From: an uncultured Caulobacteraceae bacterium
Lineage (GTDB): Bacteria > Pseudomonadota > Alphaproteobacteria > Caulobacterales > Caulobacteraceae
Length of the DNA: 38,797 bases
Assembly: GCA_964249365.1 (NCBI GenBank)
Contig: CAXUCS010000003.1
Coordinates: 1-38,797 of the forward strand
Reading direction: 5' to 3'
Shown: positions 11,879 to 36,951 of the stretch, piece after piece
How the letters are laid out: every line of letters begins with the position of its first letter
Position numbering within the stretch: the stretch's first letter is position 1
Program-made: the position numbers and the translations under genes
The notes under the pieces: generated by a model
Seen by the model: only the letters and a program-made list of their open reading frames with translations
What the model was told of the DNA's origin: nothing
Databases searched by the model: none

Positions 11879-11922
11879 CTATGCAGCTTCGGAATAGAAC
11901 GCTTCCCCAAATGCATTGGACT
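11879..11922 (+). promoter_or_regulatory. LysR-type box plus conserved downstream element, upstream of the TonB receptor operon
   Basis: CTATGC-N7-GAATAG-N13-ATGCATTGGACT. Confidence 0.7.
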
Positions 11923-12048
11923 TGGGTGCACCGAGCGCCCTTCTAAGGCGTCAGCGGCAAACAGCCGACGTTACATGCAGCTCTGACCCAGGCAAAAAAC
12001 CTGGGCAGGTAAGCCAAAGAAAAACTAGAATGCCAGGCGGGGAGCGAA

Positions 12049-14541
12049 ATGCTGAAGTTAAAGTTGGCGCTACTAAGCAGTGTAGTCATCGTGACATCCC
12101 AATCGAATATTTGCTTCGCGCAGGACGTCGTACAGGCTCCAGGTGCCAACACTACCCCGGCTTCGACCTCGCCACCCTCCGCGAGCGTGCCTGAGGTCAT
12201 CGTCACGGCCCAGAAGCGTAGCGAGAACATCAACAAGGTGGGTCTGTCAGTCCAGGCTCTCAGCGGCGACCAGCTAATCCAGCTTGGCGCCAAAGACACC
12301 GCCCAGCTTTCGAAAGCTATATCAGGCTTCAATTTCACGCAGACTGAAAATGGAACGCCGATCTACACGATCCGAGGCGTAGGCTTCCAGGACCTGTCGC
12401 TAGCTTCCAATCCCACGGTGAGCGTCTACCGGGACGAGATACCGCTTCCGTACGCCATCGAGTCTGCTGGCGCGAGCCTTGATTTGCAGCGGGTCGAAGT
12501 TCTGAAAGGGCCTCAAGGCACCCTTTTCGGAGAGAACGCGACGGGAGGCGCCATCAACTACATCGTCAACAAGCCAACGGATCATTTCGTCGCTGGCTTG
12601 GACGCAAGCTATAGTCGCTTCAACAGGCTGGACGTTGAGGGCTACCTTGGTGGTCCGATTACCGACACCCTCGACTATCGGGCCGCCGTGCGCGTGGTGA
12701 ATAGCGACGACTGGCAGGTCAGCAACTACAACGGTGCGACCTCCGGCGCGGCACGCTTCTACGACGGACGTGTCAGCCTCCTGTGGAAGCCGACCTCAAG
12801 GCTGAAGGCTCTGTTCACCGTCGAGGGCTGGATCGACAACACCGATGACCAGCAGGCGCAGCTGTTCGGCTTCAACTATGTGCGCTCGGGCGGCAACAAC
12901 ATCACTCAAACCGGGGGCAAGATTGATCCACGCATCCTCGCCTACCCGCTGGCGCTTCAGAATGACCGCTCCGCCGGCTTTGGGGCTTGTGTGAACACCT
13001 CGCCGTTTGACACGCCACTGGACAATATTGCCAAGCCGTACGGGTATTCGCCGACACGGGCGGTGACGCCCAGCAACTGCACCGGTTTCGAGCGGGATAA
13101 CACCTTCTATTCCGGGTCAGCCCGGTTAGACTACGACATCGGCGGCGACATGACCCTGACGTCGCTGACGACCTACGAACTCTTCGACCGGTACCAGCCG
13201 GTGGACGATGACGGTACGGTCTACCAGAATTACGAGAACGTCTTTACCGGCCATTTGGCGACCGCCTATCAAGAACTGCGACTGGCCGGGAAGTTCTACG
13301 GGCGCGGCAGCTGGATCGTCGGCGGCAACTACGAGCACGACGGCACAGCGGATTCGTTCCTGAACAGCCTGAACGACTCGAGCACGTCGGTGGTGGACGG
13401 CATCCTGCTTGGTCCATCAGTGACGGCGAGCAAGCAGCAAAATAACACATACGCCGCCTTCGGCGACTTCCAGTACCCGGTCCTGCAGAAGCTCACCTTG
13501 GACGCCGGCGCACGCTTCACCCAGTCCGACCAGAGCTATAACGGTTGCGCCTACGACGGCGGCGACGGCTCCATCTCCAACCTGTTCTACCTCTTGCAGG
13601 TCGCGTCGGAAAAAGCGGGCAAAGATCCCGTCGTGGCGGTGAACCGCGGTCCGGGCGGCTGCGACACCCTCTCCGCCGCTCCGACCTTCGTCCCACCGGC
13701 CGGCGGCTACGATCTGAGGCTCGACCAAAACAACGTGTCCTGGCGGGTGGGACTGGACTACAACGCGACGCCGGGCACACTGCTCTACGTCGACGTTAGC
13801 CGCGGCTATAAGGCAGGCAGTTTCCCCACGCTCTCCGCCCTGACCTATTTGCAGCTGCAACCTGCGGTTCAAGAGAGCCTCCTGGCTTACGAGGTCGGCG
13901 AAAAATCGCGGCTTTTACACTCCACCCTGCAGCTGAATAGCGCCTTCTTCTACTATGACTATACAAATAAACAGGTTCTCGGCGACACGCCCACAATCTT
14001 CGGGTCGCTGCCGAGGCTCGTCAACGTGCCGACCTCGCACGTGATCGGGGTAGAGGCGTCGGCGGTTTGGCGCCCGATCCCGCCTCTGACGATCACGCCA
14101 TCCATCAGCTATGCGCACAGCGAAATCGACGGCGACTTCTCCAACTACACACCCTTCGGCCAAGTGGCCGACTTCAAGGGCGAGCCGTTTCCGAACGCGC
14201 CGGAGCTGACGGGCAACGTCGACGCGCAGTACACTTGGAGGCTAAGCGATCAACTTGAGGCGTATGTCGGCAGCAACGCCAATTACCAGTCAGGAACGAG
14301 CGCGGCGCTCTACGATCGAACGTCGACTATCGTGGCGCCGACCCAGCTCGACCTGCCACATTACTGGCTGGTGGATATGCGCGCCGGCGTCAACCGTGGG
14401 CCGGTCAGCTTGCAGATCTGGGGGCGAAACATAACCGACAAATACTATTGGAACAATGCACGGCCCATTAACGACGTCTTGGTGCGCTACGCCGGCCGGC
14501 CCGTTACCTATGGCGCCACCCTAACCTACCGCTATCAATGA
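12049..14541 (+). CDS. TonB-dependent receptor
   Basis: Signal peptide, EVIVTAQKRSE TonB-box/plug start, RVEVLKGPQGTLFGENATGGAIN, C-terminal YGATLTYRY. Confidence 0.97.
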   Translation: MLKLKLALLSSVVIVTSQSNICFAQDVVQAPGANTTPASTSPPSASVPEVIVTAQKRSENINKVGLSVQALSGDQLIQLGAKDTAQLSKAISGFNFTQTENGTPIYTIRGVGFQDLSLASNPTVSVYRDEIPLPYAIESAGASLDLQRVEVLKGPQGTLFGENATGGAINYIVNKPTDHFVAGLDASYSRFNRLDVEGYLGGPITDTLDYRAAVRVVNSDDWQVSNYNGATSGAARFYDGRVSLLWKPTSRLKALFTVEGWIDNTDDQQAQLFGFNYVRSGGNNITQTGGKIDPRILAYPLALQNDRSAGFGACVNTSPFDTPLDNIAKPYGYSPTRAVTPSNCTGFERDNTFYSGSARLDYDIGGDMTLTSLTTYELFDRYQPVDDDGTVYQNYENVFTGHLATAYQELRLAGKFYGRGSWIVGGNYEHDGTADSFLNSLNDSSTSVVDGILLGPSVTASKQQNNTYAAFGDFQYPVLQKLTLDAGARFTQSDQSYNGCAYDGGDGSISNLFYLLQVASEKAGKDPVVAVNRGPGGCDTLSAAPTFVPPAGGYDLRLDQNNVSWRVGLDYNATPGTLLYVDVSRGYKAGSFPTLSALTYLQLQPAVQESLLAYEVGEKSRLLHSTLQLNSAFFYYDYTNKQVLGDTPTIFGSLPRLVNVPTSHVIGVEASAVWRPIPPLTITPSISYAHSEIDGDFSNYTPFGQVADFKGEPFPNAPELTGNVDAQYTWRLSDQLEAYVGSNANYQSGTSAALYDRTSTIVAPTQLDLPHYWLVDMRAGVNRGPVSLQIWGRNITDKYYWNNARPINDVLVRYAGRPVTYGATLTYRYQ

Positions 14542-15032
14542 AGCCTGAGCCGCCCCTTGAACGCGCGACGGACGAGGTGGTGCGGGCGGTCACGCTCGCT
14601 CTCGTCCAGGACTACCTGCGACTCCTTTCGGCGCAGCAATGGGAGCCATGGATCGCGCTGTGGGCCGAGGACGGGGAGCTGGAGTTTCCATACGCGCCTA
14701 GCGGCCGACGACGCCTGTACCAGGGCAAGCCGCACATCCTAGCCTACATGCAAGGGACTTCGGGCAAGGTGGCGGTCGACGGGATCGCCTACTCCCGCGT
14801 CCTCCCAATGCTCGATCCTCGTTTGGCGTGCATGGAACTCGGCATCCAAGGACACGTGCCAACCAACGGCGTCCGCTACGACCAGACCTACGTCGCCATG
14901 TTCGAGACTAAGGGCGGACAGCTCTGGCGGTACCGAGAGTACTGGAACCCGCTGATCTCCATGGACGCCTTCGGCGGCCGGGAGGCCTGGACCAACGCCT
15001 TCGGCAACCCTGAGGAAGGACATACCACATGA
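14538..15032 (+). CDS. SnoaL-like / PhzA-B-like NTF2-fold protein
   Basis: LWAEDGELEFPYAP...YDQTYVAMFETKGG...YREYWNPL; ATGA overlap with the receptor. Confidence 0.85.
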   Translation: MKPEPPLERATDEVVRAVTLALVQDYLRLLSAQQWEPWIALWAEDGELEFPYAPSGRRRLYQGKPHILAYMQGTSGKVAVDGIAYSRVLPMLDPRLACMELGIQGHVPTNGVRYDQTYVAMFETKGGQLWRYREYWNPLISMDAFGGREAWTNAFGNPEEGHTT

Positions 15033-15865
15033 GTCGCAAAGTGCTGATCACGGGGGGAACGGGCAAGACCGGGCGAAGACTGGCCGAGCGGCTCGCCGAG
15101 GCAGGCGTCGCTCATCGCGTAGGCTCCAGGCGCGGCTCGCCGCCCTTTGACTGGGGCGTTCCCGCCACCTGGGATGCCGCGCTGGAGGGCATTGACGCCC
15201 TCTATCTCTTGGCCCCGCCGACTTTGCCTGACCCGGTCGGCCCGATGATCGCTTTCGCCAAGCTCGCGGCGGCTTTAGGCGTAAACCGCTTCGTGCTCCT
15301 CAGCTACTCGCCGATTCCCGCTGGCGGGCCGCAGCTCGGGCAGGTGCACCAGTGGCTAATGGGCAACGCCTCCGACTGGGCTGTTCTGCGGCCGACATGG
15401 TTCATGCAGAACTTCAGCGAAGGCCAGCACCTCGCGACCATCCGCGACGAGGACGCCATCTACTCGGCCACGGGCTCCGGGCGCACGCCCTTCATCAGCG
15501 CGGACGACATTGCGAGCGCGGCCTCGGCCGCGCTCCTGGCGGAGACGCCGCTTAACCAGGACTACATCCTGACCAACGACGCGCTCCTCTCCTACGATCA
15601 AGTCGCCGCGATCATCGGCGATGCGGTGGGCCGCTCCATCCGCCACCGGGCCATCTCCGCCGAGGCGTTGACCGAGCGCTTTCGGGCCCGCGGCCTACCG
15701 GACGCTTATGCCGCGACGGCCGCCCGCATGGACCAGATGATTGCGGGAGGCGCGGAGGACCGCACCACCGATGCGCTGAGGCAGCTGACCGGACAAGCGC
15801 CCGTGGACTTCGCAGCCTTCGCCAAGACGAATGCGGCAACCTGGGCCAAGAAGGGCCCAGCGTGA
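15029..15865 (+). CDS. NmrA-like NAD(P)H oxidoreductase (EasG/agroclavine dehydrogenase-like family)
   Basis: VLITGGTGKTGRR, FDW, WAVLRPTWFMQNFSEG.H..TIR....IYSATG.G..PFISADDIA. Confidence 0.88.
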   Translation: MSRKVLITGGTGKTGRRLAERLAEAGVAHRVGSRRGSPPFDWGVPATWDAALEGIDALYLLAPPTLPDPVGPMIAFAKLAAALGVNRFVLLSYSPIPAGGPQLGQVHQWLMGNASDWAVLRPTWFMQNFSEGQHLATIRDEDAIYSATGSGRTPFISADDIASAASAALLAETPLNQDYILTNDALLSYDQVAAIIGDAVGRSIRHRAISAEALTERFRARGLPDAYAATAARMDQMIAGGAEDRTTDALRQLTGQAPVDFAAFAKTNAATWAKKGPA

Positions 15866-17277
15866 ATCTGGCCATGCACTCGTTCGGTCCCGAGGCGCTG
15901 GAGTCTGCGCGGGTGCTAGAGGCGTCCGGCTCGCCCACACCGGAGCGCGTCGACCTAGACCGACTGCTGGATGAACATCCAGCAACCCCGCTACATCTCC
16001 TCATCACGCTTCTTGGCTTTGCCGTTCTCCTTGTTGACGGTTACGACCTTTTCGTCACAAGTCAGCTGCTGCCGCCTATCGCGAGCAGTTTCCATGTCCA
16101 CACCGCCGCCCTGACATCGAGCTATGCGGTTCAGCTGGTCGGCTCGGCGCTCGGAACCTTCGTAATCGGGCCGATAGCGGATCGTCTTGGCCGGCGGCCG
16201 GCTCTCCTGACCTCTCTCGGCCTCTTCGGGCTCGCAACACTCGCAAGCGTGGGCTGCTCTAACACCACGACCTTCAACGTCACCCGTTTCATGGCCGGTT
16301 TTCTGGGCGGCGGACTCATGCCGATCGCGGTCAGCCTCGTCGCTGACGTCGTGCCTCGGCGTTGGAGGGGCGCGCTCATCGGTGCCGTCTACGGCGGCCT
16401 TACGATAGGCCCGCTCGGCTCGGCTTTGGCGACCGGTCAACTCCTGGGTGTCTTCGGCTGGAGGAGCGCCTATTGGATCGGGGGCTTGATGCCGCTTATG
16501 CTGTGGCCTTTTGCTTTCGCGTTCGTAGCCGAGTCGCCGCGCCTGCTCGCCCGGCGCAACCCGGCCGATCCACGCATCCGGCGTGCACTCCGCGGCCTCG
16601 GTGTGCGCTCCATCGGAAAGGTGTTCCTCACCGAGCCGGCCCGACACGCGAACCCGGTCGTCGGTCTTTTTCGCGGCGGTCGAGGGGTTCTGACACTCGC
16701 CCTCTGGCTCGCTTCAGTCCTCAGCCTCATGGCGGTGACGCTGTACACACTCCTAGGCGCTTTCTACCATGAGTTCGACGGCATTCCGCTGGCGCATTTC
16801 GCCGGCTATCTCACCTTAGCGCTCATCGGCAGCGCGGCGGCCGTGTTCGGCGTAGGCCCCGTTATGGATCGCATCGGCGCCTACCGCAGCCTGTTTGTCC
16901 TGGCGCTCGGCGGCGCCATAGACGTTGTCGCGCTTGCCGGCCTGAAGGTCGGAACGCCAGCCTTCGACTTGACGATCTTCCTCGGCGGCTTCGCAGTGGC
17001 AGGCGCCCAGCAGTCGCTCAACATCCTTACGCCAGTGCTTTATCCGGCCGCCATGCGCGCCGCCGCCGTCGGCTGGAAGGGCGGCCTGAGTCGGCTCGCG
17101 AGCGCCGCCGCGCCCGCTCTCGGCGGCATGATTATGGCGCGCCGCGCGGGGCTCCCCGTCGCGCTCACCGTCACCGCTGTCCCGCTTGTGCTGCTGGCGC
17201 TCGGGACGCCGCTGCTGGCCCAAATTGCGCGCCGCACGGCGGAGCGAACGGCAGAACCTGACGCCGGCGCGACCTGA
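15862..17277 (+). CDS. MFS transporter, aromatic acid:H+ symporter (PcaK/BenK-like) type
   Basis: DGYDL in TM1, GPIADRLGRRP, GWRSAYWIGG, ESPRLL, LYPAAMRA..VGW. Confidence 0.9.
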   Translation: MNLAMHSFGPEALESARVLEASGSPTPERVDLDRLLDEHPATPLHLLITLLGFAVLLVDGYDLFVTSQLLPPIASSFHVHTAALTSSYAVQLVGSALGTFVIGPIADRLGRRPALLTSLGLFGLATLASVGCSNTTTFNVTRFMAGFLGGGLMPIAVSLVADVVPRRWRGALIGAVYGGLTIGPLGSALATGQLLGVFGWRSAYWIGGLMPLMLWPFAFAFVAESPRLLARRNPADPRIRRALRGLGVRSIGKVFLTEPARHANPVVGLFRGGRGVLTLALWLASVLSLMAVTLYTLLGAFYHEFDGIPLAHFAGYLTLALIGSAAAVFGVGPVMDRIGAYRSLFVLALGGAIDVVALAGLKVGTPAFDLTIFLGGFAVAGAQQSLNILTPVLYPAAMRAAAVGWKGGLSRLASAAAPALGGMIMARRAGLPVALTVTAVPLVLLALGTPLLAQIARRTAERTAEPDAGAT

Positions 17278-17375: not shown

Positions 17376-18533
17376 GTGTTCGAATTCTTTGAAGGCAACT
17401 ACCCTTGGAACATGGCGGTAGTAACTCTTGTGGAGGAGGTGGGCACGATTTCTGAGCCTTCCTCGGTCTTAGAGGCTTTAAAAGCCGTCGCTCGCCAGCC
17501 GCCGGAGATCGCGAGCCCCGCCTGGCGCGACGCAATGCAGGCGCTCGGCGAGCGCCTGGAGCGGGAGGCAGACGAGGACGAGGGCCGCGGCCACCTGCTC
17601 TCCGCGTCCCGCAAACATCACCGCGCCGCCATGTACTTCGTCCGGGCCGAGCGGATGGTGAGCCACACCGATCCGCTTCGCTTACCGCTCTACCGGCGCG
17701 CGCTGCACGCCTACCGCAAGGCGCGCGAGCTCAACCGTGACCCCATAAACTTCGTGGAGGTGGCCTACGGGGGCAGCGCGATCCCAGGGCTGTTCTTGCG
17801 CGGCGAGGGCGAGGGGCCGAGGCCGACCGTGCTCCACCTGCAGGGCTTCGACAGTCTGAAGGAGACTCAGTACCCCTACCTCGACGGCTACCGTCCGCGC
17901 GGCATGAACGCCCTGATCGTCGACCAGCCGGGCGCGGGCGAGGCGCTGAGGTTGAACGGCCTGGTGGGCGTGATCGAGACGGAGACCTACGTCGCAGCGC
18001 TCCTGGACTACCTCCAGGGCCGCCCAGACGTCGACGGCGAGTCGATCGGCCTCTGCGGCATGAGCATGGGCGGCTTCTTCGCGCCTCGTGCCGCAGCCCA
18101 CGAGCCGAGGGTCAAGGCCTGCGCGGCCTGGGGCGCGCTCTACGAGGCCGCGCCGCTCTACCGCGGCATCATCGAGAAGGCCAGGGGCGCGGAGGTCTCG
18201 CTGCCGGACACCATCGGGCACGCGCTCTGGACCTTCGGCTGCTCGACTCTCGAGGAGCTGGAGGCCTTTTTCGGCCGCATGACGCTGGAGCCGGTGATCG
18301 GCCGGCTCACCTGCCCGCTCCTCGTCACCCACGGGGAGAACGACCGCCAAGTGCCGCTCGCGCAGGCCCGGCGCACGGTGGAGGAGGCCGGGAGCACCGA
18401 CAAGGAGCTGAAGGTCTTCACCAAGGCCGAGGGCGGGGCCGAGCACTGCCAGCTCGATAACCGCTACCGCGGCGCCGACTACGTAGCCGACTGGTTCGCC
18501 GAGCGCCTCGGCGGCTCGACCAGTGGCGTCTGA
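17376..18533 (+). CDS. alpha/beta hydrolase (2,6-dihydroxypseudooxynicotine hydrolase/FrsA-like family)
   Basis: GFDSLKE, DQPGAGEALR, nucleophile GMSMGG, HGENDRQ, GGAEHCQLDN; GAGGAG before GTG. Confidence 0.88.
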   Translation: MFEFFEGNYPWNMAVVTLVEEVGTISEPSSVLEALKAVARQPPEIASPAWRDAMQALGERLEREADEDEGRGHLLSASRKHHRAAMYFVRAERMVSHTDPLRLPLYRRALHAYRKARELNRDPINFVEVAYGGSAIPGLFLRGEGEGPRPTVLHLQGFDSLKETQYPYLDGYRPRGMNALIVDQPGAGEALRLNGLVGVIETETYVAALLDYLQGRPDVDGESIGLCGMSMGGFFAPRAAAHEPRVKACAAWGALYEAAPLYRGIIEKARGAEVSLPDTIGHALWTFGCSTLEELEAFFGRMTLEPVIGRLTCPLLVTHGENDRQVPLAQARRTVEEAGSTDKELKVFTKAEGGAEHCQLDNRYRGADYVADWFAERLGGSTSGV

Positions 18534-20518: not shown

Positions 20519-22062
<1,544 letters not shown>

Positions 22063-22063
<1 letters not shown>

Positions 22064-28174: not shown

Positions 28175-28217
28175 CCATCCAGAAGCGGAATAGTGCGCGC
28201 CCGTTATGCATTGGACT
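28175..28217 (+). promoter_or_regulatory. LysR-type box plus conserved element for the MaoC operon
   Basis: CCATCC-N7-GAATAG-N12-ATGCATTGGACT (last 12 nt identical to 11911-11922). Confidence 0.7.
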
Positions 28218-29253: not shown

Positions 29254-30804
29254 GTGCTGTTGTGCCTGTCTGTCGAGCGAGCCGCCCAGGTCAACGGCCG
29301 CGGCTGCGCCACCGCCTACCTTGGCCGCACCCGAACCTGGACAGAGTTCCGCAGCCGGGTCGCGAGGCTCGCGTCCGGGCTCAAGGCGCTGGGCTTGAAC
29401 GCCGGCGACCGGGTCGCGATCCTAGGCGCGAACTCCGACAGCTACCTGGAGGCGCTCTACGCCGTCTGGTGGTTCGGCGGCGTGGTCGTGCCCATGAACT
29501 TTCGCTGGTCGCCGCAGGAGCACCAGGGCTGCCTGGAGGACGCCGGGGTGGCAGCGCTCCTCTTCGACGCCGTCCACGAGGGGGTGGGCGTGCAGCTCGG
29601 AGCCGGGCTTCCCACCGGGCGCTCCGTTTTAATGCGGCTCGACAGCCCTCCGGCAGGGTCAACGGCGGCGGAGGCGCTGATCGCCGACGCCGAACCGCTC
29701 CCGCTCGCCAACGCCGATCCCAGCGCACTCGCTGGCCTCTACTACACGGGCGGGACCACCGGACGGCCAAAGGGCGTGATGCTGTCGGCCTCGGCCCTGT
29801 GGTCAAGCGCCATGTCGATGGCCCTAGAGCTGAAGCTTGATCGGCGGGACACCTACCTGCACGCCGCTCCGGTGTTCCACCTCGGGGACGGCCAGTTCAC
29901 CCTAGCGATCACCCTGGTGGCCGGCACCCACATCATCCTGCCGGCCTTCCGGCCGCAGGACGTCTTGGAGGCAGTGCGCGCTCACCGGGTTTCGGTGACG
30001 CTGCTGGTGCCGACCATGGTGCGCATGCTCCTGGACTGCGAAACCTTCGATCCAGCCGCGGTCGGCTCGCTGCGCTGCTTGGCTTACGGGGCTGCGGCCA
30101 TGCCGGAAGCGACGCGGCGGGACGCGGCTGCGGCGCTGCCTCGCGCCGAGCTAGTCCAGGTCTACGGCCAGACCGAGCTCGCGCCTTTGGCCGCCGCCTT
30201 CCACGAGAGCGAAGCGAAGACCAATGCGGACGAGGGAGGCCGGCCGAATGGTCGCGCCTCCTTTTCTGTACAGGTCAAGATCGCACGGGAGGACGGGCAG
30301 GAAGCACCGCGCGGCGTCGTCGGTGAAATCTGGGTCCGCGGCCCCAATGCGATGTTAGGCTACTGGAGGGCGCCGGAGCTCACGGCAGTTCAGATGCAGG
30401 ACGGCTGGGTCAAGACCGGGGATCTCGGTCATATGGACGAGGGCGGGTTCGTCTACATCTGCGACCGCGCCAAGGACATGATCATCTCCGGCGGCGAGAA
30501 CATCTTCTCCGTGGAGGTCGAGAACGCGCTCCTGCTGCATCCCGGAGTGAAGGAGGCCGCCGTCATCGGCCTTCCCGACCCGGTGTACGGCGAGAAGGTC
30601 CACGCGGTGGTGGTGGCCAAAGAGGCCGCCAGTCTGGAATGCAGCGGACTCGACCGTCACTGCCGCACCCTGATCGCCGGCTACAAGGTCCCCCGCTCCT
30701 TCGAGTTCCGCACGGCGTCACTGCCGCTCTCATCCACCGGCAAGCCGCTTAAGAGCGAACTCCGCCGGGCCTGGGCCGCCCGCCTCATCGCCGACGGTGG
30801 CTGA
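29254..30804 (+). CDS. acyl-CoA synthetase (AMP-binding)
   Basis: YYTGGTTGRPKGVM, YGQTE, KTGD, DRAKDMIISGGEN; GGAGGG before GTG 29254. Confidence 0.95.
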   Translation: MLLCLSVERAAQVNGRGCATAYLGRTRTWTEFRSRVARLASGLKALGLNAGDRVAILGANSDSYLEALYAVWWFGGVVVPMNFRWSPQEHQGCLEDAGVAALLFDAVHEGVGVQLGAGLPTGRSVLMRLDSPPAGSTAAEALIADAEPLPLANADPSALAGLYYTGGTTGRPKGVMLSASALWSSAMSMALELKLDRRDTYLHAAPVFHLGDGQFTLAITLVAGTHIILPAFRPQDVLEAVRAHRVSVTLLVPTMVRMLLDCETFDPAAVGSLRCLAYGAAAMPEATRRDAAAALPRAELVQVYGQTELAPLAAAFHESEAKTNADEGGRPNGRASFSVQVKIAREDGQEAPRGVVGEIWVRGPNAMLGYWRAPELTAVQMQDGWVKTGDLGHMDEGGFVYICDRAKDMIISGGENIFSVEVENALLLHPGVKEAAVIGLPDPVYGEKVHAVVVAKEAASLECSGLDRHCRTLIAGYKVPRSFEFRTASLPLSSTGKPLKSELRRAWAARLIADGG

Positions 30805-30855: not shown

Positions 30856-31848
30856 ATGACGGACCTCACCAAAGGCGAGATCGACGCCACCCGCGCTTCA
30901 CTGACTCTCGACGACCTGCGCGCCTCGGCCGAGCGCAACCGGCAGTGGGGCCGCTGGGGCGAGGACGACGAAATTGGCACGCTGAACCACGTCACCCCGG
31001 AGATGATCGTGGAGGCCGCCAAGCTCGTGCGCAAAGGCAAGTGCTTCGGCCTGGCGCTGCCTTTCGACCTGAACGGGCCGCAGCGAACCGGCAGCGGCAC
31101 GCCCCGCTTCAACCCCGTCCACACCATGTTCCGCTCCGGCTGCGATGAGTACTCGCCCCACGCGGTGGATCGCGGCGGGTTCAAGGGCGCCGACGACATG
31201 GTCACCATGCCGCTGCAATGCGGCACGCAGTGGGACGGGCTCGGCCACGTCTTCTACGAAGGCAAGATGTGGAACGGCTACGACGCGCGGCTGGTGAGCG
31301 GCCTCGGCGCGGCCAAGAACGGCATCGAGAAGACGCGCGACCGCATGACCGGCCGAGGCGTTCTCCTCGACATACCTCGCCACCTCGGCCTGCCGTGGCT
31401 GCCGGACGGCTATGGCGTCGGCGTGGAGCTCATAGAGGCCTGCGCGAAGGCCGAAGGGATCAAGGTCGGCAAGGGCGACTTCGTGATGGTGCGCACCGGC
31501 CAACTCGACCGCTGCCTGGAGCAGGGCTCATGGGGCGAGTACGCCGGCGGCGACGCACCCGGTCTGCGATTCGACACCCTAGACTGGTTGAGGGAAAGCG
31601 ACATCGCCGCGCTGGCGACCGACACTTGGGGCTTCGAAGTGCGGCCCAACGAAGTCAAGAACGCGCGCCAGCCTATGCATTGGATCGTCATCCCGCTGAT
31701 CGGCTTGACGGTCGGCGAGATTTTCCGCTTCAAGGACTTGGCCGACGACTGCGCCGAGGACGGTGTGTACGAGTTTTTCTTCTGCGGCGCCTCGCTTCCG
31801 TTCACGGGTGCGGTCGGAACGCCGCTGAATCCGATGGCCATCAAGTAA
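30856..31848 (+). CDS. cyclase-family (kynurenine formamidase-like) metal-dependent hydrolase
   Basis: WGRWGEDDEIGTLN, QCGTQWDGLGH, GRGVLLD, VRTG, GEIF, G.PLNPMAIK. Confidence 0.92.
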   Translation: MTDLTKGEIDATRASLTLDDLRASAERNRQWGRWGEDDEIGTLNHVTPEMIVEAAKLVRKGKCFGLALPFDLNGPQRTGSGTPRFNPVHTMFRSGCDEYSPHAVDRGGFKGADDMVTMPLQCGTQWDGLGHVFYEGKMWNGYDARLVSGLGAAKNGIEKTRDRMTGRGVLLDIPRHLGLPWLPDGYGVGVELIEACAKAEGIKVGKGDFVMVRTGQLDRCLEQGSWGEYAGGDAPGLRFDTLDWLRESDIAALATDTWGFEVRPNEVKNARQPMHWIVIPLIGLTVGEIFRFKDLADDCAEDGVYEFFFCGASLPFTGAVGTPLNPMAIK

Positions 31849-31857: not shown

Positions 31858-32412
31858 ATGATCGGCGTGGATTTGATCGCCTACAAGGGCAAGGTGCCGC
31901 AGATCGACCCTTCCGCCTGGATCGCGCCGGGCTGTCGGATCATCGGCGACGTGGAGATCGGGCCTCGCGCCAGCATTTGGTACAACTGCGTCCTGCGGGG
32001 GGACGTGAACCGGGTGGTGGTCGGCGCGGGCTCCAACATCCAGGACGGCAGCGTCATCCACTGCGACTCCGGCGGCTTACAAAGCGAGGGGCACCCCACG
32101 CTGATCGGCGAGGATGTCCTGATCGGCCACCTTGCGGTCGTGCACGGCTGCACGCTTGGCCGGGGCTCGGTCGTCGGCATGGGCTCGATCACAATGGACG
32201 GTGCCGTGGTGGAGGGGGGCGGCATGGTGGCCGCTGGCGCCATGCTGACGCCGTACAAGCGCATCGGTCCAAATGAACTCTGGGGCGGGCGCCCGGCCCG
32301 GCTAATGCGCATGCTTTCGGCTTCGGAACTGGCGTCCAACGCACAGAGCGTGGAACACTATCAGCAGCTCGCCGAGGCGCATCGGAGCGCCTTGGGCGAG
32401 GTCCGCCCGTGA
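31858..32412 (+). CDS. gamma carbonic anhydrase family (PaaY/CaiE/YrdA-like)
   Basis: IIGDVEIG..ASIWYNCVLRGD, SNIQDGSVIH, IGH.AVVHGC hexapeptide repeats. Confidence 0.93.
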   Translation: MIGVDLIAYKGKVPQIDPSAWIAPGCRIIGDVEIGPRASIWYNCVLRGDVNRVVVGAGSNIQDGSVIHCDSGGLQSEGHPTLIGEDVLIGHLAVVHGCTLGRGSVVGMGSITMDGAVVEGGGMVAAGAMLTPYKRIGPNELWGGRPARLMRMLSASELASNAQSVEHYQQLAEAHRSALGEVRP

Positions 32413-32463: not shown

Positions 32464-33234
32464 TCAGGCCTCTCCCGCAGACTCCGGCGGCCGCTTTTCA
32501 AGCATCGCCATGATTAAGCTCCGCGCCTCTGGCGAGCATAGCCGATCGCCGAACACCGCCAACTCCTCGTCGATCCGGCGCTCGATTTCCGCGGCGTCGG
32601 CGCGCATTAGCCGTTTGGCCTCCCGCAAGGCTTCAGGCGGCTTGGCCGCCAGCCGACGTGCAAGGCTCATGGCCGCGACGTCCAGCTCTTCCGGCGTCGT
32701 CACTCTGTTCACCAAGCCCAAACGGAAGGCGGTCTGCGCGTCGAGGGTCTCGCCCAGGAGCAGAAGCTCAGCCGCCACGTGTCTACCGACCTGCTGCGGC
32801 AGGAGGAGCGTACTGGCGAACTCGGGCGTCAGGCCTAGGCTCACGAAGGGCATCTGCACCCGCGCACGGGTGCTGGCCACGACCAAATCGCAGTGCAGAA
32901 GCAGCGTTGCGCCGATACCGATGGCCACGCCGTCCACCGCGGCGACAACTGGCTTGTGCGCTTGACTCAACGCAGTCATGAACCGGCGCAAAGGCGATGT
33001 GCGCTCGCTGGAAAACGGCCGCCGCGTAACGTCTTTCAAGTCGTTCCCGGCCGTGAAGGCGCCGCGCTCACCGCCTATCAGGATAGCGTGAACGGAGCCG
33101 TCCGCCTCCGCCGTCATCAGCGCTTCCGCGAGAGCGGCGTACATCTCCTCTGTGATCGCGTTTTTCTTCCCCGGCCTGTTAAAGCGAATCTCCGCCACAG
33201 CCCCCGTTCCGCGATAGATCGCCAGCTCCATCAC
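32464..33234 (-). CDS. enoyl-CoA hydratase/isomerase
   Basis: FNRPGKKNAIT, FTAGNDL, KPVVAAVDG.AIGIG.TLLLHCD, PFVSLGLTPEFAST. Confidence 0.93.
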   Translation of the reverse strand: MMELAIYRGTGAVAEIRFNRPGKKNAITEEMYAALAEALMTAEADGSVHAILIGGERGAFTAGNDLKDVTRRPFSSERTSPLRRFMTALSQAHKPVVAAVDGVAIGIGATLLLHCDLVVASTRARVQMPFVSLGLTPEFASTLLLPQQVGRHVAAELLLLGETLDAQTAFRLGLVNRVTTPEELDVAAMSLARRLAAKPPEALREAKRLMRADAAEIERRIDEELAVFGDRLCSPEARSLIMAMLEKRPPESAGEA

Positions 33235-33275: not shown

Positions 33276-35678
33276 CTACTTGGAGCAGACCACCGCTGAG
33301 CCGATCACGTCTCTGAGGACCTCGTTGGTCCCGGCGAAGATCGTCCAGGACCGGGTGTTCAGGTACTTGGCGGTCGGCTTCGCGGCGTAGTCGGGTCCTA
33401 TCGGCGGCGCGTTGCTGGTCAGCGTCAGCGAAGCGCGCTGATCGGCAAGCGCGTAGTCACCGAGCGCCTCCATCCCGAGTTCGGCGGAGCGCTGGTACAA
33501 TTCGCTGCCGGTGACCTTCAGCATCGCCGCCAGGACCTGCCCCACACTCTCACCGGCCGCGAAGCCGGCGGCGATTCTGTTCTCCGTCGCCTCCAGCGCC
33601 AGGACGTCGATTTCGTGCTCCACGAAGCGGAGCCGATAATACGGGTCGTTCCAGAAGGCGTCCCCGCCGTCGCCGGCTTCGTCCCGGGCGATCGCCTCGG
33701 CCTCCTGGAGAAGACCCGAGCACATGGCGGCGAACGCCTGACCACCCCGCTCGTGCTCCAGGAGGTACTTGGTGACGGTCCAACCCTCGTTCTCCTCACC
33801 AACGCGATTTGTCACAGGCACTCGGACATCGTCGAAGAAGACCTGGTTGACCTCGTGTTCGCCCGACATAGAGAGGATGGGCCGTACGGTCATCCCCGGC
33901 GTGTCCATCGGCACGAGGAGGAAGCTGATGCCGGCCTGCGGCTTGCCGTCCGCCCTGGTGCGCGCCAGCAGGAAGATCCAGTTGGCGTTTTGGGCGTGGG
34001 TGGTCCAAATCTTGGAGCCGTTAATAACGTAGTCGTCGCCGTCACGCACCGCCCGCGTGCTGAGGGAGGCAAGGTCCGAGCCCGATGCCGGCTCGGAGAA
34101 ACCCTGGCAGAAGTAGATGTCGAAGGAAAGGATTCCTGGAAGGAAGTAGGCCTTCTGCTCGGGCGTGCCAAACTTCATCAACGCGGGAGCAGCGAGGCCC
34201 AGGCCCATCTTCGCCGGCATCGGCGCATTGGCCAAATTGCACTCGCTGGCGAAGATCTGGCGCTCGATGGGATCCCAGCCCGTGCCGCCATGCTCCACCG
34301 GCCAGGATGGAGCGCCCCAGCCCTTTTTCAGGAGCTCGCGCTGCCACCATACGCCGAGCTCCGGTTCGGCGAACAGCCCGGCCTGGCGGGCGTTGAGCGC
34401 CCGCTTCCCCGCCGGGTAGGCCTCGTCGATGAAGGCCCGCACGTCCTCACGGAAGCCTTGGTAATTCTTGGTGTTCTCAACGTCCGACGCAGGCGCATCG
34501 TCGGCTTTCCCAACGTAAGCGTCACGGAATGTTGCGAAGCGTTCGAGGTGGTAGCCGACCGTGCCGAACTGGCGCTCGATCTCCGTGGCGCGCTTGAAGA
34601 GGCGCCCGACGAAGAGCTCGTCGGTGGTTCCCATGCCTCCGTGCAGCTGCACGGCGTGCTGGGCGACGAACCGCAGCGCTTTGCCGACGTAGGCCTTGGT
34701 GGCGGAAACGCGTTGCATGCGCGCACCGCGCCCCAACCCTGCGAGCGCCCCCAAGGTCTCCTCGACGAAGGAGACGGCGTGCTCTCTGAGGATCGACATG
34801 TCGGCAAGGCGGTGCCGTACGACCTGGAAGTCGGCGAGCGGCCGTCCGAACTGCCGCCGCTGGCGCACATAGGCCGTGGTGTCGTCGATCAGCCGCGACA
34901 TGACGCCGAGCCCTTCGGCGCAGACCAGCGCACATGCCTCGTCCAGCAGCGCTTCCAGCAACGGCAGCGCACGCCCTTCCGCCAGGAGGAGACGGTCCGC
35001 CGGAACGCTGACCGCCTCAAAAGCGAGGTCGGAGGCGGGTCGGCCCGAGATGGTACGATAGTCCCGGCGGGTCAGGCCCGGCGCCGTTGCGTCCACCAGG
35101 AACAGGGACACGCCGTCCCGATCGCCCGCCGCTCCGGCCGTGCGCGCGGGAACGAGCAGGTGGGTGGCGCGCGGCGCATCGAGCACCACGACTTTACGAC
35201 CGCTCAAGCGGTAGGCCTCGCCCCGGCGGTGCGCCTGCATCGAGACTTGCGCGGGATCATAGCGCCCGGCTCTCTCACCATGTGCCAGCGCGGCGAGGAG
35301 GCTGCCTGCGACCACCTCCCCGAGGAGTTGGTCGGCGTCGGCCATCTCCGATGCCAGAAGTGCTCGCCCCGTCATCAAAGCGGTGAGGTAAGGCTCCAGT
35401 ACGAGAGCGCGGCCGAATTGCGCCAGGATCATGCCCTGGTTCCGGAAGCCGCCGCCGACGCCGCCCACATCTTCCGGTAGTCCGAGCCCAGCCAAGCCGA
35501 GCGCGTCGACGAACGCCGCCCAACGTCCGCCCGCGTTCGTCAGTTCGTCGTCGGACTGGCGGCGCTGCTCCGCCTCGTCGTAGTGGCTCCTAAGGTAGCT
35601 CTCGACAGAGCGTCGCAGTTGCTCGGCGTCTTCGGCTTGCAGCTCGCGCATCGGGTCGGCGGGCGTTCGCTGCAACAT
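33276..35678 (-). CDS. tandem-fused double acyl-CoA dehydrogenase (PimD-like + PimC-like halves)
   Basis: N half: RRQFGRPLADFQ...AVQLHGGMG. C half: FCQGFSEPASGSDLASL, GSKIWTT, NQVFFDDVRVP, TIFAGTNEV. Start set at ATG 35678 (GGAGG RBS); the track ORF starts at 35732. Confidence 0.92.
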   Translation of the reverse strand: MLQRTPADPMRELQAEDAEQLRRSVESYLRSHYDEAEQRRQSDDELTNAGGRWAAFVDALGLAGLGLPEDVGGVGGGFRNQGMILAQFGRALVLEPYLTALMTGRALLASEMADADQLLGEVVAGSLLAALAHGERAGRYDPAQVSMQAHRRGEAYRLSGRKVVVLDAPRATHLLVPARTAGAAGDRDGVSLFLVDATAPGLTRRDYRTISGRPASDLAFEAVSVPADRLLLAEGRALPLLEALLDEACALVCAEGLGVMSRLIDDTTAYVRQRRQFGRPLADFQVVRHRLADMSILREHAVSFVEETLGALAGLGRGARMQRVSATKAYVGKALRFVAQHAVQLHGGMGTTDELFVGRLFKRATEIERQFGTVGYHLERFATFRDAYVGKADDAPASDVENTKNYQGFREDVRAFIDEAYPAGKRALNARQAGLFAEPELGVWWQRELLKKGWGAPSWPVEHGGTGWDPIERQIFASECNLANAPMPAKMGLGLAAPALMKFGTPEQKAYFLPGILSFDIYFCQGFSEPASGSDLASLSTRAVRDGDDYVINGSKIWTTHAQNANWIFLLARTRADGKPQAGISFLLVPMDTPGMTVRPILSMSGEHEVNQVFFDDVRVPVTNRVGEENEGWTVTKYLLEHERGGQAFAAMCSGLLQEAEAIARDEAGDGGDAFWNDPYYRLRFVEHEIDVLALEATENRIAAGFAAGESVGQVLAAMLKVTGSELYQRSAELGMEALGDYALADQRASLTLTSNAPPIGPDYAAKPTAKYLNTRSWTIFAGTNEVLRDVIGSAVVCSK

Positions 35679-35777
35679 CGGTCTCGCCTCCAAACGCCAT
35701 TCGCCCGCCTGACGACGGTTAGTCGAGGACATTAGCGTATGCAGATGGCGCGTCGACCATAGAGCCCTTTTGGCCTC

Positions 35778-35815
35778 GATGCATTAAGCGGCAGCACAAT
35801 TCCCAGCAGGACTTG
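35778..35815 (-). promoter_or_regulatory. LysR-type box plus conserved element for the fused-ACAD unit
   Basis: On the - strand: CAAGTC-N7-GAATTG-N12-ATGCATC. Confidence 0.55.
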
Positions 35816-35826
35816 CCGCGGGCTGA

Positions 35827-36951
35827 TCAAAGATTGCGTGCAATCAGCAGGCGCTGGATGTCGGACGTGCCTTCATAGATCTGGCACACGCGAACATCGC
35901 GATAGATTTTGGCTAGCCCGTAATCCTCCAAATAGCCATAGCCGCCCAGCGTCTGAATGGCGCCGGAGCACACCGCCTCGGCGGTCTCGGATGCAACCAG
36001 CTTGGCCATGGATGCCTCCGTCAGGCAGGGATGGCCCGCATCCTTCAGATTGGCAGCATGAAGGACGAGCTGGCGCGCCGCTTCCAGGCGGGCGGCAAGG
36101 TCGGCCAGGCGGAAACCGACAGCCTGATGGCTAATGATGGGCGTTCCGAAGCTGGAGCGATCCTTGGCGTAGGCAACAGCTCGCTCCAGGGCGGCTTGCG
36201 CCATGCCCACGCTCTGGGCGGCGATGCCGATGCGGCCGGTCTCCAGGTTGGCAAGCGCGATGCGGTAACCCTGCCCTTCATCACCAAGGCGCAGCGCCGC
36301 AGGCACACGCATTGAGTCGAAGACCAGCGCACAGGTGTCTGACGCTTGTTGTCCGAGCTTGTGCTCTACCTTGGCAACCCCGAAGCCGGGAGTGTCGGTC
36401 GGCACCAAGAAGGCAGATAGACCTCTTTTGCCCGCCTCCGCATCTGTGACGGCGAACACGATGCACAAGCCAGCGATACGGCCGGAGGTGATAAATTGCT
36501 TGGAGCCATCGATTACGTACTGCTCGCCGTCGCGTCTCGCCCGGGTGCGGAGTGCCGAAGCATCCGAGCCCGCCCCTGCCTCCGTCAACCCGAACGCCCC
36601 GATCATGCGCCCGGCGCACAGTTCGGGCAGAAAGCGCGCCTTCTGTTCGGGAGAGCCTTGCTGCAAGAGAGCGGCGATGACCGGCGCGTTATGCACGCTG
36701 ACCACCGTTGACAGTCCTCCATCACCCGCCGCCAACTCCATCAGCGCAAGCGCATATGAAACGTAGTCAGCCTCCGCACCGCCATAGTGCGCTGGTGCGG
36801 TCATGCCCAAAAGTCCGAGATCTGCAAGTTCAGCAAAGATTGCGGACGGGAAGCAACCCCGCCGTTCCCATTCCTGCGCATGAGGCGAAACGCGATTTTG
36901 CGTCCAATCACGGACCGCATCCCGAATAGCAGATTGTGTCTCGCTCAGCAT
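35827..36951 (-). CDS. acyl-CoA dehydrogenase (short/branched-chain type)
   Basis: AFGLTEAGAGSDA, GSKQFITSG, AIQTLGGYGY, IYEGTSDIQR. Confidence 0.95.
   Translation of the reverse strand: MLSETQSAIRDAVRDWTQNRVSPHAQEWERRGCFPSAIFAELADLGLLGMTAPAHYGGAEADYVSYALALMELAAGDGGLSTVVSVHNAPVIAALLQQGSPEQKARFLPELCAGRMIGAFGLTEAGAGSDASALRTRARRDGEQYVIDGSKQFITSGRIAGLCIVFAVTDAEAGKRGLSAFLVPTDTPGFGVAKVEHKLGQQASDTCALVFDSMRVPAALRLGDEGQGYRIALANLETGRIGIAAQSVGMAQAALERAVAYAKDRSSFGTPIISHQAVGFRLADLAARLEAARQLVLHAANLKDAGHPCLTEASMAKLVASETAEAVCSGAIQTLGGYGYLEDYGLAKIYRDVRVCQIYEGTSDIQRLLIARNL

What the first reader, a model, noticed from the sequence alone, without database searches (positions are those of the whole stretch)
11879..36951. 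Self-contained ~25 kb uptake-plus-catabolism island for an unidentified natural product
Seen: outer- and inner-membrane uptake, unusual upper-pathway enzymes (two SnoaL-like, EasG-like reductase, DHPON-type hydrolase, cyclase, BKACE) and a full CoA activation/beta-oxidation set. All appear intact and lie between a recombinase remnant and an ICE end. No ring-cleaving oxygenase is present. I do not recognise this combination as a described pathway (not paa, box, pim, cai, or steroid/nicotine clusters). Inference: oxygenase-independent, hydrolytic/reductive breakdown of a cyclic or heterocyclic compound carrying an acyl chain (polyketide, lactone or alkaloid-like), mobilised as ICE cargo.
Basis: partly seen in the sequence, partly recalled or inferred. 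Interest (0 to 1): 0.82.

Follow-up and report, generated by a model that had tools for sequence, protein, structure and literature searches.

The report
Orphan oxygenase-free catabolic regulon on island
A 25 kb block of 22 intact-looking uptake and breakdown genes, stitched together from parts that occur separately in other bacteria, carries the same regulator-type DNA signal in front of four (weakly five) of its operons, and so likely forms one pathway, predicted to dismantle an unknown ring-shaped, acyl-chain-bearing natural product by hydrolysis instead of oxygenases.

Summary
The inventory is confirmed: 22 full-length genes (12049-36951), no oxygenase, between a broken serine-recombinase tail and a Tn4371-type ICE end whose trbI is cut by an IS. 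The block was not found whole in any genome searched; it is a mosaic of (A) a DHPON/FdeB-family Ser hydrolase of a separate clade that travels with a BsfD-like BKACE, (B) a usually stand-alone SnoaL+EasG-like pair, (C) a recurrent TBDR/LysR/SCP2-thiolase/MaoC/acyl-CoA dehydrogenase kit, plus an esterase/lactonase-type cyclase. New here: a bipartite LysR-type promoter motif, trained on relatives, gives four strong sites (24.6-32.1 bits; none that high in the other 3.02 Mb) and one weak site, each facing an island operon. So the parts are likely one regulon. Best mechanism (inferred): retro-Claisen removal of a C-acyl chain, lactone opening, BKACE cleavage of the 3-oxo acid, then peroxisome-like R-specific beta-oxidation of a branched chain. 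It is not a member of fde/ifc or phloroglucinol pathways, though it borrows their logic. Substrate unknown; current self-mobility not supported. New variant of a known kind; interest 0.52.

The parts
10985..11709 (+). Frameshifted C-terminal remnant of a large serine recombinase; att-like junction at about 11657
   Evidence: 71-75% to a host copy with a Resolvase N-terminus; matches the C-terminus of a 495-aa recombinase in G009 (121); a related contig in run X2 leaves the window at 11657 into a tRNA-like sequence (tRNA reading is recalled)
11881..11921 (+). LysR-type promoter motif, site 1 (32.1 bits, 14-nt spacer), 127 nt before the TBDR operon
12049..14541 (+). TonB-dependent receptor, 830 aa
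   Evidence: Pfam; 45-48% relatives sit in sibling LysR/SCP2-thiolase loci
14538..15032 (+). SnoaL1, YesE-like; start overlaps the receptor's stop
15029..15865 (+). EasG-like NmrA-family NAD(P) oxidoreductase
   Evidence: pair with SnoaL in 13 of 14 family loci
15862..17277 (+). MFS transporter closest to aromatic acid/H+ symporters
17376..18533 (+). DHPON/FdeB-family alpha/beta hydrolase, triad Ser230-Asp323-His357
18563..19435 (+). BKACE (DUF849), BsfD-like: His45/His47/Glu244 metal site, Arg88 loop, Phe163
19446..20552 (+). Alpha-methylacyl-CoA racemase-like (CoA-transferase III)
   Evidence: E 1.5e-117 to MCR 1x74 (109)
20519..22063 (-). Acyl-CoA ligase FadD1
22171..23091 (-). MFE-2-like (3R)-hydroxyacyl-CoA dehydrogenase
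   Evidence: E 2.8e-103 to 1zbq
23171..24370 (-). SCP2-thiolase type 1 (PRK08256, over cut-off)
24416..25558 (-). Acyl-CoA dehydrogenase ACAD1
25624..25663 (-). LysR-type promoter motif, site 3 (26.7 bits), facing ACAD1, beside the lysR start
25670..26590 (+). LysR1 regulator, likely master regulator
   Evidence: 48-58% relatives in 5 of 15 sibling loci
26607..27071 (-). SnoaL2, YesE-like
27083..27988 (-). Crotonase ECH1 (PRK08290, over cut-off)
28106..28145 (-). LysR-type promoter motif, site 2 (30.7 bits), facing ECH1
28177..28216 (+). LysR-type promoter motif, site 4 (24.6 bits), facing MaoC1
28293..28796 (+). MaoC1 (HadA-like hot-dog subunit)
28811..29230 (+). MaoC2 (HadB-like hot-dog subunit)
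29254..30804 (+). Acyl-CoA ligase FadD2 (start chosen by ribosome-binding site; ORF open from 29149)
30856..31848 (+). PF04199 cyclase-family metallohydrolase with the modified Gln121-x3-Gln125-x-Asp127-x3-His131 motif (esterase/lactonase type)
31858..32412 (+). Gamma-carbonic-anhydrase/PaaY/CaiE-like protein
32464..33234 (-). Crotonase ECH2
33276..35732 (-). Fused small+large subunit acyl-CoA dehydrogenase (PimD-like then PimC-like), 818 aa
35774..35813 (-). LysR-type promoter motif, weak site 5 (17.2 bits; 12.3 with the second training set), facing the fused dehydrogenase
35827..36951 (-). Acyl-CoA dehydrogenase ACAD3; no good motif site, lowest GC3 (0.69); may be outside the regulon
37343..38245 (+). 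LysR2 of the ICE end
38205..38447 (-). DUF2274 of the ICE end
38448..38744 (-). trbI 3' remnant
38745..38797 (.). End of a multi-copy insertion sequence inserted in trbI
   Evidence: identical 53 nt at the ends of four other contigs with different flanks

Best explanation
The island is a mosaic gene block that likely works as one LysR1-controlled catabolic regulon, predicted to break down a C-acylated cyclic beta-dicarbonyl lactone (3-acyl-4-hydroxy-2-pyrone or acyl-tetronate type) without oxygenases. Shown: the genes, their operon layout, the shared promoter motif, the enzyme subfamilies and active-site residues, and the separate occurrence of the modules elsewhere. Inferred steps: (1) the TonB receptor and MFS import the compound; (2) the Ser230 hydrolase cuts off the C-acyl chain by retro-Claisen hydrolysis, as DHPON hydrolase, Ayg1p and AntI do; (3) the Mn-type cyclase-family hydrolase opens the remaining lactone to a 3-oxo acid; (4) BKACE turns the 3-oxo acid plus acetyl-CoA into an acyl-CoA and acetoacetate; (5) the freed acid is activated by FadD1/FadD2 and shortened by a peroxisome-like spiral able to take 2-methyl branches (racemase, dehydrogenases, MaoC R-hydratase, 3R-dehydrogenase, SCP2-thiolase); (6) the SnoaL/EasG-like proteins would isomerise or reduce an enone before or between these steps (weakest step). 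The block was likely gathered as cargo at a Tn4371-type ICE end that has since decayed.
For: Motif: trained on 4 relatives' sites, the five best window sites each face the first gene of an island operon; four score 24.6-32.1 bits against 0 sites that high and 1 at 20 or more in the other 3.02 Mb; with a second set of 9 relatives' sites the top three still beat the genome maximum of 21.9 and the best of 792 upstream regions (17.9). Hydrolase, BKACE and SnoaL/EasG lie in the TBDR operon, cyclase in the MaoC operon. Hydrolase fold and triad match C-C hydrolases (PMC6601290 passages). Hydrolase-BKACE pairing: 8 of 119 hydrolase hits share a longest-contig length with a BKACE hit, 7 over 5 kb versus 0.08 by chance; L032 holds cyclase-BKACE-hydrolase as a three-gene operon; all paired hydrolases fall in one clade (SH-aLRT 100) apart from the oxygenase-linked fde clade. 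Cyclase keeps every residue of the esterase/trans-dienelactone-hydrolase subtype (PMC5341072 passages). Cyclase plus BKACE is a proven pairing in phloroglucinol breakdown (PMC10470551 passages). Racemase, 3R-dehydrogenase and SCP2-thiolase are closest to the peroxisomal/MCR enzymes. All 5 sibling LysR1 loci carry a hydrolase of their own (carboxylesterase, SMP-30 lactonase, esterase, amidohydrolase).
Against: No substrate, expression or binding data. The whole block was found in no other genome searched. The cyclase's 118 nearest relatives with a contig length share no contig over 5 kb with the hydrolase or BKACE hits, so the three-enzyme link rests on the window and L032. Hydrolase relatives at 47-51% identity in family f133 have no BKACE nearby, and 14 BKACE relatives at 52-60% have no such hydrolase within 1.5 kb. 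The closest solved BKACE, BsfD, does non-canonical decarboxylative acetylation, and the window enzyme shares its Arg91 and Phe166 equivalents, which suggests a substrate with a distal anion rather than a plain alkyl 3-oxo acid. Deleting the related hydrolase of the ifc cluster did not affect daidzein breakdown. The motif was first noticed by eye with the window's own ACAD1 site in view, 2 of 6 relatives' regions were dropped, and the 14-nt spacer was allowed after seeing site 1; the de novo Gibbs run was only slightly above shuffles (91.5 versus 83.9-87.8); one of 100 Markov simulations reached 25.7 bits.
Confidence: 0.5

Rival explanations
1. Lower pathway only: an aromatic or flavonoid-like compound is first opened by oxygenases encoded elsewhere (or by neighbouring cells), and the island handles the acyl-pyrone or dicarboxylic ring-cleavage products, as FdeB-type hydrolases are thought to in the fde/ifc route.
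For: Hydrolase family includes FdeB-like enzymes and one 53% hit is machine-named FdeB; the ifc route yields a hydroxypyranone after meta-cleavage; MFS is aromatic-acid-symporter-like and the fused dehydrogenase pimeloyl-CoA-like; BsfD-type Arg88 fits a distal carboxylate; the genome is only 74.6% complete and has other aromatic clusters.
Against: The window hydrolase is outside the fde clade, where 11 of 12 distinct loci carry a flavin monooxygenase and/or VOC dioxygenase; none of the 4 visible loci of its own clade does. Best host matches to fde oxygenases are 26% (FMO) and 27-35% (VOC). An outer-membrane receptor heads the same operon.
Confidence: 0.2
2. One regulon but not one pathway: a broad scavenging toolkit for several lipid-like esters, lactones and branched acids, with passengers (SnoaL/EasG pair, cyclase, ACAD3) accreted behind an ICE end and merely caught under the same promoters.
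For: Each module occurs alone elsewhere; redundant ligases, crotonases and dehydrogenases; cyclase relatives unlinked to the hydrolase-BKACE pair; hydrolase and cyclase relatives are themselves ICE cargo in L029 and L073; codon indices vary from 0.41 to 0.67.
Against: A single receptor and a single MFS; overlapping stop-start junctions across receptor-SnoaL-EasG-MFS; two YesE-like paralogues in separate motif-bearing operons; all ORFs intact while both mobility flanks have decayed.
Confidence: 0.22
3. A biosynthetic or tailoring cluster: AntI-like hydrolase, SnoaL and cyclase folds, an NmrA reductase and a BsfD-like diketone-forming enzyme build or modify a small polyketide-like product.
For: These folds all occur in polyketide tailoring; BsfD makes a beta-diketone; AntI shortens polyketides.
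Against: No ketosynthase, carrier protein or NRPS among the 22 genes; importer-type receptor and symporter; the regulator and motif belong to loci dominated by beta-oxidation genes.
Confidence: 0.05

Closest known systems
fde (naringenin, Herbaspirillum) and ifc (isoflavone, Variovorax) clusters
   Same: DHPON-type alpha/beta hydrolase; hydroxypyranone intermediates in ifc (PMC11069340, parts 2-4 read); a cyclase-family gene in some fde-like loci. FdeB's proposed C-C cleavage of an acyl-pyrone is recalled, the paper was not held.
   Different: No FdeE/IfcA monooxygenase, FdeC/IfcB dioxygenase, cupin or FAH gene; hydrolase is in another clade (36-39% identity); the fde-type cyclase is the short HxGTHxD form with no BLAST match to the island's; BKACE and full beta-oxidation added.
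Anaerobic phloroglucinol pathway (PGR, DPGC, TfD, TAL) of Clostridium scatologenes
   Same: Oxygen-free logic: cyclase-family hydrolase opens a cyclic 1,3-dicarbonyl, BKACE-family enzyme cleaves the 3-oxo acid, thiolase finishes (PMC10470551 passages).
   Different: DPGC is described as isatin-hydrolase-like with a conserved metal site, the island's is the Gln-modified subtype; no 3-hydroxyacyl-CoA-dehydrogenase-family TfD; only SDR is MFE-2-like; extra C-acyl hydrolase, uptake and branched-chain spiral.
DHPON hydrolase / Ayg1p / AntI C-C hydrolases
   Same: Two-domain fold (TM 0.69-0.80), Ser-Asp-His triad.
   Different: 17-26% identity; no nicotine or PKS genes; substrate pocket untested.
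BsfD (flavophos) and other BKACEs
   Same: Closest solved structure (E 7.6e-103); Zn ligands, beta3-loop Arg, Phe at the canonical Tyr position, Tyr248/Lys251 kept.
   Different: No phosphonate genes; Arg226 equivalent is Ala223; reaction type unknown.
MGS0169 esterase (5IBZ) and P. reinekei trans-dienelactone hydrolase
   Same: Gln-x3-Gln-x-Asp-x3-His motif and Arg/His/Glu ligand residues invariant in 25 aligned relatives.
   Different: About 40% similar level only (E 1e-60); physiological substrate of MGS0169 unknown; no chloroaromatic genes.
Peroxisomal AMACR / MFE-2 / SCPx branched-chain beta-oxidation and its bacterial LysR1 sibling loci
   Same: Racemase, 3R-dehydrogenase, MaoC hydratase, SCP2-thiolase (108-110); same regulator family and motif in relatives.
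   Different: 0 of 15 sibling SCP2-thiolase loci carry the hydrolase, BKACE, cyclase, SnoaL or EasG-like genes.
Tn4371-family ICE cargo region
   Same: trbI-DUF2274-LysR followed by catabolic cargo, as in L073 and L029; naming this layout Tn4371-type is recalled.
   Different: trbI truncated by an IS; no relaxase DUF3363 found in the incomplete assembly (74, control silent); far boundary undefined.

Membership tests
fde/ifc flavonoid A-ring cleavage cluster | Flavin monooxygenase (FdeE/IfcA) in the cluster | tested here: not met
   No such Pfam hit among island ORFs; best host match 26% on another contig (112)
fde/ifc flavonoid A-ring cleavage cluster | VOC extradiol dioxygenase (FdeC/IfcB) and cupin | tested here: not met
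   Absent from island
fde/ifc flavonoid A-ring cleavage cluster | Hydrolase inside the FdeB clade | tested here: not met
   Separate starred branches, quick IQ-TREE of 97 rows
Phloroglucinol pathway (PGR-DPGC-TfD-TAL) | Cyclase-family hydrolase and BKACE co-located | tested here: met
   Both in island, in different operons sharing the motif
Phloroglucinol pathway (PGR-DPGC-TfD-TAL) | TfD-type 3-hydroxyacyl-CoA dehydrogenase-family gene and a phloroglucinol reductase | tested here: not met
   No 3HCDH hit; the only SDR is MFE-2-like
Phloroglucinol pathway (PGR-DPGC-TfD-TAL) | Orthology of the cyclase to DPGC | not testable with these tools
   DPGC sequence not obtainable; profile search of PDB finds only 5IBZ
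DHPON/Ayg1p/AntI C-C hydrolases | Helical N-domain plus alpha/beta-hydrolase fold with Ser-Asp-His triad | tested here: met
DHPON/Ayg1p/AntI C-C hydrolases | Retro-Claisen activity on a C-acyl 1,3-dicarbonyl | not testable with these tools
   needs assay
BKACE (DUF849) | His-His-Glu Zn site and TIM-barrel family membership | tested here: met
   PF05853 336 bits; H45, H47, E244
BKACE (DUF849) | Canonical Tyr near the CoA sulfur | tested here: not met
   Phe163, as in BsfD and RaKce; meaning unresolved in that paper
MGS0169/trans-dienelactone hydrolase subtype of PF04199 | Gln-x3-Gln-x-Asp-x3-His motif, Arg87/His286/Glu299 equivalents | tested here: met
   Q121, Q125, D127, H131, R84, H275, E288 invariant
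paa / box / cai / steroid ring / nicotine clusters | Signature genes (PaaABCDE, BoxAB, CaiT/CaiD set, KstD/Hsa, Ndh/Kdh) | tested here: not met
   No island protein reaches such an NCBIfam cut-off; only below-cut-off relatives such as PaaY, PimC/D, CaiE
Autonomous Tn4371-type ICE | Intact trb mating-pair genes next to the cargo | tested here: not met
   trbI cut by IS end at 38745; trbE/trbL piece on a different small contig (73, 75)
Autonomous Tn4371-type ICE | Integrase, relaxase and both att ends | tested here: inconclusive
   Contig ends in the IS; DUF3363 not found but control silent and genome 74.6% complete
Single LysR regulon | Shared operator/promoter motif upstream of each operon | tested here: met
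   four strong and one weak site; none for ACAD3
Single LysR regulon | LysR1 binding and co-induction | not testable with these tools
   no RNA holder listed; needs EMSA or RNA-seq

The most novel reading that the evidence does not exclude
An undescribed aerobic but oxygenase-free route that destroys 3-acyl-4-hydroxy-2-pyrone, acyl-tetronate or beta-triketone natural products (many are fungal or plant antimicrobials) by three successive hydrolytic/retro-Claisen cuts, carried by a new hydrolase-BKACE clade that spreads as ICE cargo and has been plugged into a branched-chain beta-oxidation regulon.
Probability: 0.27. Interest if true: 0.75.

Novelty: new variant of a known kind. Interest (0 to 1): 0.52.

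Why it matters
Catabolic islands with unknown substrate are common, but this one is unusually tractable: a predicted operator gives a ready biosensor for finding the inducer, and three enzyme subfamilies with unassigned function (a separate clade of C-C hydrolases, BsfD-like BKACEs, Gln-motif cyclases) get a testable shared role. If right, it would give genes for oxygenase-free breakdown of acyl-pyrone/tetronate antimicrobials and show how a beta-oxidation regulon gains a new substrate by inserting stand-alone modules behind its own promoters. It would also correct automated FdeB labels on this hydrolase clade.

Tried and rejected
Scan of genome contigs with the single hydrolase gave only 27-34% fragments. 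Viral contigs: none. Whole-block DNA search: no plasmid record covers more than 4%; none of 9 same-genus genomes holds more than single-gene matches of at most 1.2 kb. Hydrolase profile: 14 of 400 family and 12 of 400 class genomes at E<=1e-60, none fetched belongs to the window's clade; family f133 (32 of 46 genomes) gave sister clades without BKACE. Long direct or inverted repeats marking island ends: none beyond paralogue matches. Sigma-70/terminator scan: no excess over shuffles. ARAGORN tRNA-Pro at 34237-34311 rejected: inside the fused dehydrogenase ORF, and a canonical copy lies elsewhere. Sequencing runs: no RNA holder listed; three DNA runs of one study hold scattered 92-100% pieces of the island and may be the source habitat, so not independent. 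Protein atlas was unavailable, so no language-model look-alikes were seen. Profile search of 50% representatives (741 hits at E<=1e-30) carries no context and added nothing. Four look-ups of earlier findings returned nothing. Literature: ten searches listed no paper on this gene combination; 72 (yesE/yesF) and 114 (dehydroacetic acid breakdown) gave nothing useful, 20 and 138 gave zero papers; subscription journals are not covered. Alkaloid substrate ranked lower because no deaminase, aminotransferase or amine oxidase is among the 22 genes. Steroid ring, nicotine, paa and box pathways rejected for lack of signature genes.

Full report
Setting. The window is the whole of contig C3 of an unnamed, 74.6% complete, 69.6% GC genome. 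Pfam and NCBIfam scans of 43 chosen ORFs confirm 22 genes from 12049 to 36951 in six transcription units: TBDR-SnoaL1-EasG-MFS-hydrolase-BKACE-racemase (+); ACAD1-thiolase-SDR-FadD1 (-); lysR1 (+); ECH1-SnoaL2 (-); MaoC1-MaoC2-FadD2-cyclase-gamma-CA (+); ACAD3 / fused ACAD-ECH2 (-). The first four genes overlap stop on start. No oxygenase family was hit and no gap exceeds 304 nt. All 22 genes lie at or below the 20th percentile of codon adaptation among 467 host genes, in line with foreign origin.

Flanks. At 10985-11709 two frames give the zinc-ribbon and coiled-coil tail of a large serine recombinase: 71-75% identical to a host copy on C262 that has a Resolvase N-terminus and matching the end of a 495-aa recombinase in G009. 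The catalytic half is missing. A related contig in run X2 parts from the window at 11657 into a sequence I recall as a tRNA T-arm, so this is an att-like junction. On the right, LysR2, DUF2274 and the last ~100 codons of trbI form the layout I recall as the Tn4371 cargo end; the same layout precedes catabolic cargo in L073 and L029. trbI is cut at 38745 by 53 nt that also end four other contigs with different flanks, i.e. an insertion sequence. A trbE-trbL piece lies on another small contig. Past ICE carriage is likely; present self-mobility is not supported, and the left 11 kb holds further integrase and IS3 fragments, so the true left border is open.

Does the set co-occur elsewhere? Not as a whole in what was searched: no plasmid covers more than 4% and 9 of 9 same-genus genomes give only single-gene matches. 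It splits into modules. (C) The SCP2-thiolase occurs in 16 of 300 family genomes; I fetched 15 of the 18 places (three near contig ends left out). They show shuffled sets of ligases, dehydrogenases, crotonases, MaoC pairs (4 of 15), LysR1 relatives at 48-58% (5 of 15) and receptors up to 45-48%, and 0 of 15 carry the hydrolase, BKACE, cyclase, SnoaL, EasG-like, MFS or gamma-CA genes. (B) The EasG-like gene occurs in 12 of 300 family genomes; in 13 of 14 places a SnoaL gene lies just upstream, with a divergent TetR or HxlR regulator in the 4 checked, and none of the other distinctive island genes. (A) The hydrolase's 119 nearest relatives and the BKACE's 119 share 8 longest-contig lengths, 7 above 5 kb against 0.08 expected (maximum 1 in 400 shifts); this is indirect, the contigs were not seen. 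L032, one of 27 metagenome loci, shows TetR then cyclase-BKACE-hydrolase as a compact operon at 57, 61 and 52% identity. Against a fixed trio, the cyclase's nearest relatives share no contig above 5 kb with either list. A quick IQ-TREE of 97 rows (careful run unfinished) puts the window, L032 and the 8 paired proteins in a 46-row branch (SH-aLRT 100), apart from a 13-row fde-like branch in which 11 of 12 distinct loci carry a flavin monooxygenase and/or VOC dioxygenase; none of the 4 other visible loci of the window's branch does. A further branch from family f133 sits with a ligase and, in 6 of 7 loci, a 55-59% cyclase, without BKACE; the 47-51% sister branch has neither. Fourteen BKACE relatives at 52-60% from 400 class genomes have no such hydrolase within 1.5 kb.

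One regulon. Comparing the 170 nt before lysR1 and six relatives showed by eye a dyad (ATTCC-N5-GGAAT, T-N11-A type) followed after 13 nt by an AATGCATTGGAC box ending in a -35-like hexamer; the blind Gibbs run was only slightly above shuffles. A matrix from four relatives (L169, L170, L173, L181; L168 and L175 dropped as poor matches), spacer 13 or 14, ranks five window sites first, each facing the first gene of an operon: 11881 (TBDR, 32.1 bits), 28145 (ECH1, 30.7), 25663 (ACAD1, 26.7), 28177 (MaoC1, 24.6), 35813 (fused ACAD, 17.2). In the other 3.02 Mb, 0 sites reach 24.6, 1 reaches 20 and 4 reach 16; 100 Markov simulations of the island averaged a best score of 13.0, one reaching 25.7. A second matrix from 9 other sites in relatives (found with the first matrix, so only partly independent) keeps three sites above the genome maximum of 21.9, ACAD1 at 20.2 and the fifth at 12.3; the best of 792 host upstream regions scores 17.9. 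With spacer 13 alone the TBDR site drops out of the list. ACAD3 has no good site. The same motif recurs several times in sibling loci L173 and L181, and each of the 5 sibling LysR1 loci carries its own hydrolase: carboxylesterase, SMP-30 lactonase plus esterase (two loci), alpha/beta hydrolase, amidohydrolase. I infer that LysR1 regulons pair a substrate-specific hydrolase with a beta-oxidation kit, and that here the hydrolase-BKACE, SnoaL-EasG and cyclase modules were inserted behind those promoters.

Chemistry. The hydrolase model (pLDDT 86) matches DHPON hydrolase, an uncharacterised streptococcal protein, Ayg1p/Wdyg1p, FrsA and AntI; Ser230, Asp323 and His357 are invariant in 20 sequences. 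DHPON hydrolase cleaves a C-C bond and AntI shortens a polyketide by retro-Claisen reaction (PMC6601290, passages). The cyclase's only solved relative is 5IBZ, MGS0169, a Mn-dependent esterase whose Gln-x3-Gln-x-Asp-x3-His motif is shared with trans-dienelactone hydrolase (PMC5341072, passages); those residues are invariant in 25 aligned relatives. The BKACE is closest to BsfD, which acetylates and decarboxylates a 3-oxo acid instead of cleaving it (bioRxiv 10.64898/2026.01.15.699783, abstract, passages and section 8); Arg91 and Phe166 equivalents are kept, but also in all 110 other close relatives, so they mark the subfamily, not the reaction. A cyclase-family ring opener followed by a BKACE is established for phloroglucinol (PMC10470551, passages). 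The racemase, SDR and thiolase are closest to MCR, MFE-2 3R-dehydrogenase and SCP2-thiolase, the set that by established knowledge handles 2-methyl-branched acyl-CoAs. In the ifc pathway a hydroxypyranone arises after oxygenase steps, and loss of the DHPON-like gene had no effect on daidzein loss (PMC11069340, parts 2-4); PMC11303751 (passages) and the NetSyn preprint (passages) gave background only. That FdeB cleaves an acyl-pyrone is recalled, the paper was not held. Supplements were not read; the BsfD and phloroglucinol alignments there could bear on substrate calls.

Verdict. Most likely one LysR1-controlled, oxygenase-free pathway for a C-acylated cyclic beta-dicarbonyl lactone (0.5), against a broad toolkit with passengers (0.22), a lower pathway fed by outside oxygenases (0.2) and biosynthesis (0.05). 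My separate estimates: catabolic 0.9, one regulon 0.8, this substrate class about 0.3. It works like the lower fde route and the phloroglucinol route but is a member of neither. Ten literature searches listed no description of the combination, within an open-access library.

Noticed in passing
window 33276-35732: Natural in-frame fusion of a PimD-like small and PimC-like large acyl-CoA dehydrogenase subunit with no start codon at the junction; in L173 the related genes are separate ORFs.
   Followed up: partly
window 3305-4479: IS3-family transposase remnant whose upstream frame is fused to a fragment of a molybdopterin (SorA-like) oxidoreductase.
   Followed up: no
window 2189-2605 and 4605-6518: Tyrosine integrase fragment, and an AraC regulator with a divergent NmrA gene that has 70-74% DNA relatives in G009; typical cargo debris left of the island.
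   Followed up: no
G000 C96 and C23: Two more DHPON-type hydrolases in the same genome; C96 again has TBDR, hydrolase, two SDRs and a distant (33%) BKACE, an independent hydrolase-BKACE neighbourhood.
   Followed up: partly
L094, L096, L098, L145-L148 (family f133): Conserved oxygenase-free unit: enolase-superfamily gene, DHPON-type hydrolase, TetR, Gln-motif cyclase, TRAP transporter and acyl-CoA ligase; another orphan pathway.
   Followed up: partly
L072 9998-11723 and L073 9971-16492: TetR-cyclase-SDR with molybdenum hydroxylase genes on Rhizobium pRL8 and an Ancylobacter plasmid, the latter as cargo behind DUF2274-trbI; cyclase 52-53% to the window's.
   Followed up: no
G000 C31 4488-7884: A second decayed ICE end (trbJ-like, frameshifted trbI, DUF2274, LysR, SDR cargo) in the same genome.
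   Followed up: no
P0028: Protein machine-named FdeB falls in the BKACE-linked branch, not the fde branch; the label is probably over-extended.
   Followed up: partly
window 29001-36000 in run X1: Pieces only 92-97% identical, one bridging FadD2 and the cyclase, suggest a diverged copy of the right arm in the same habitat.
   Followed up: no
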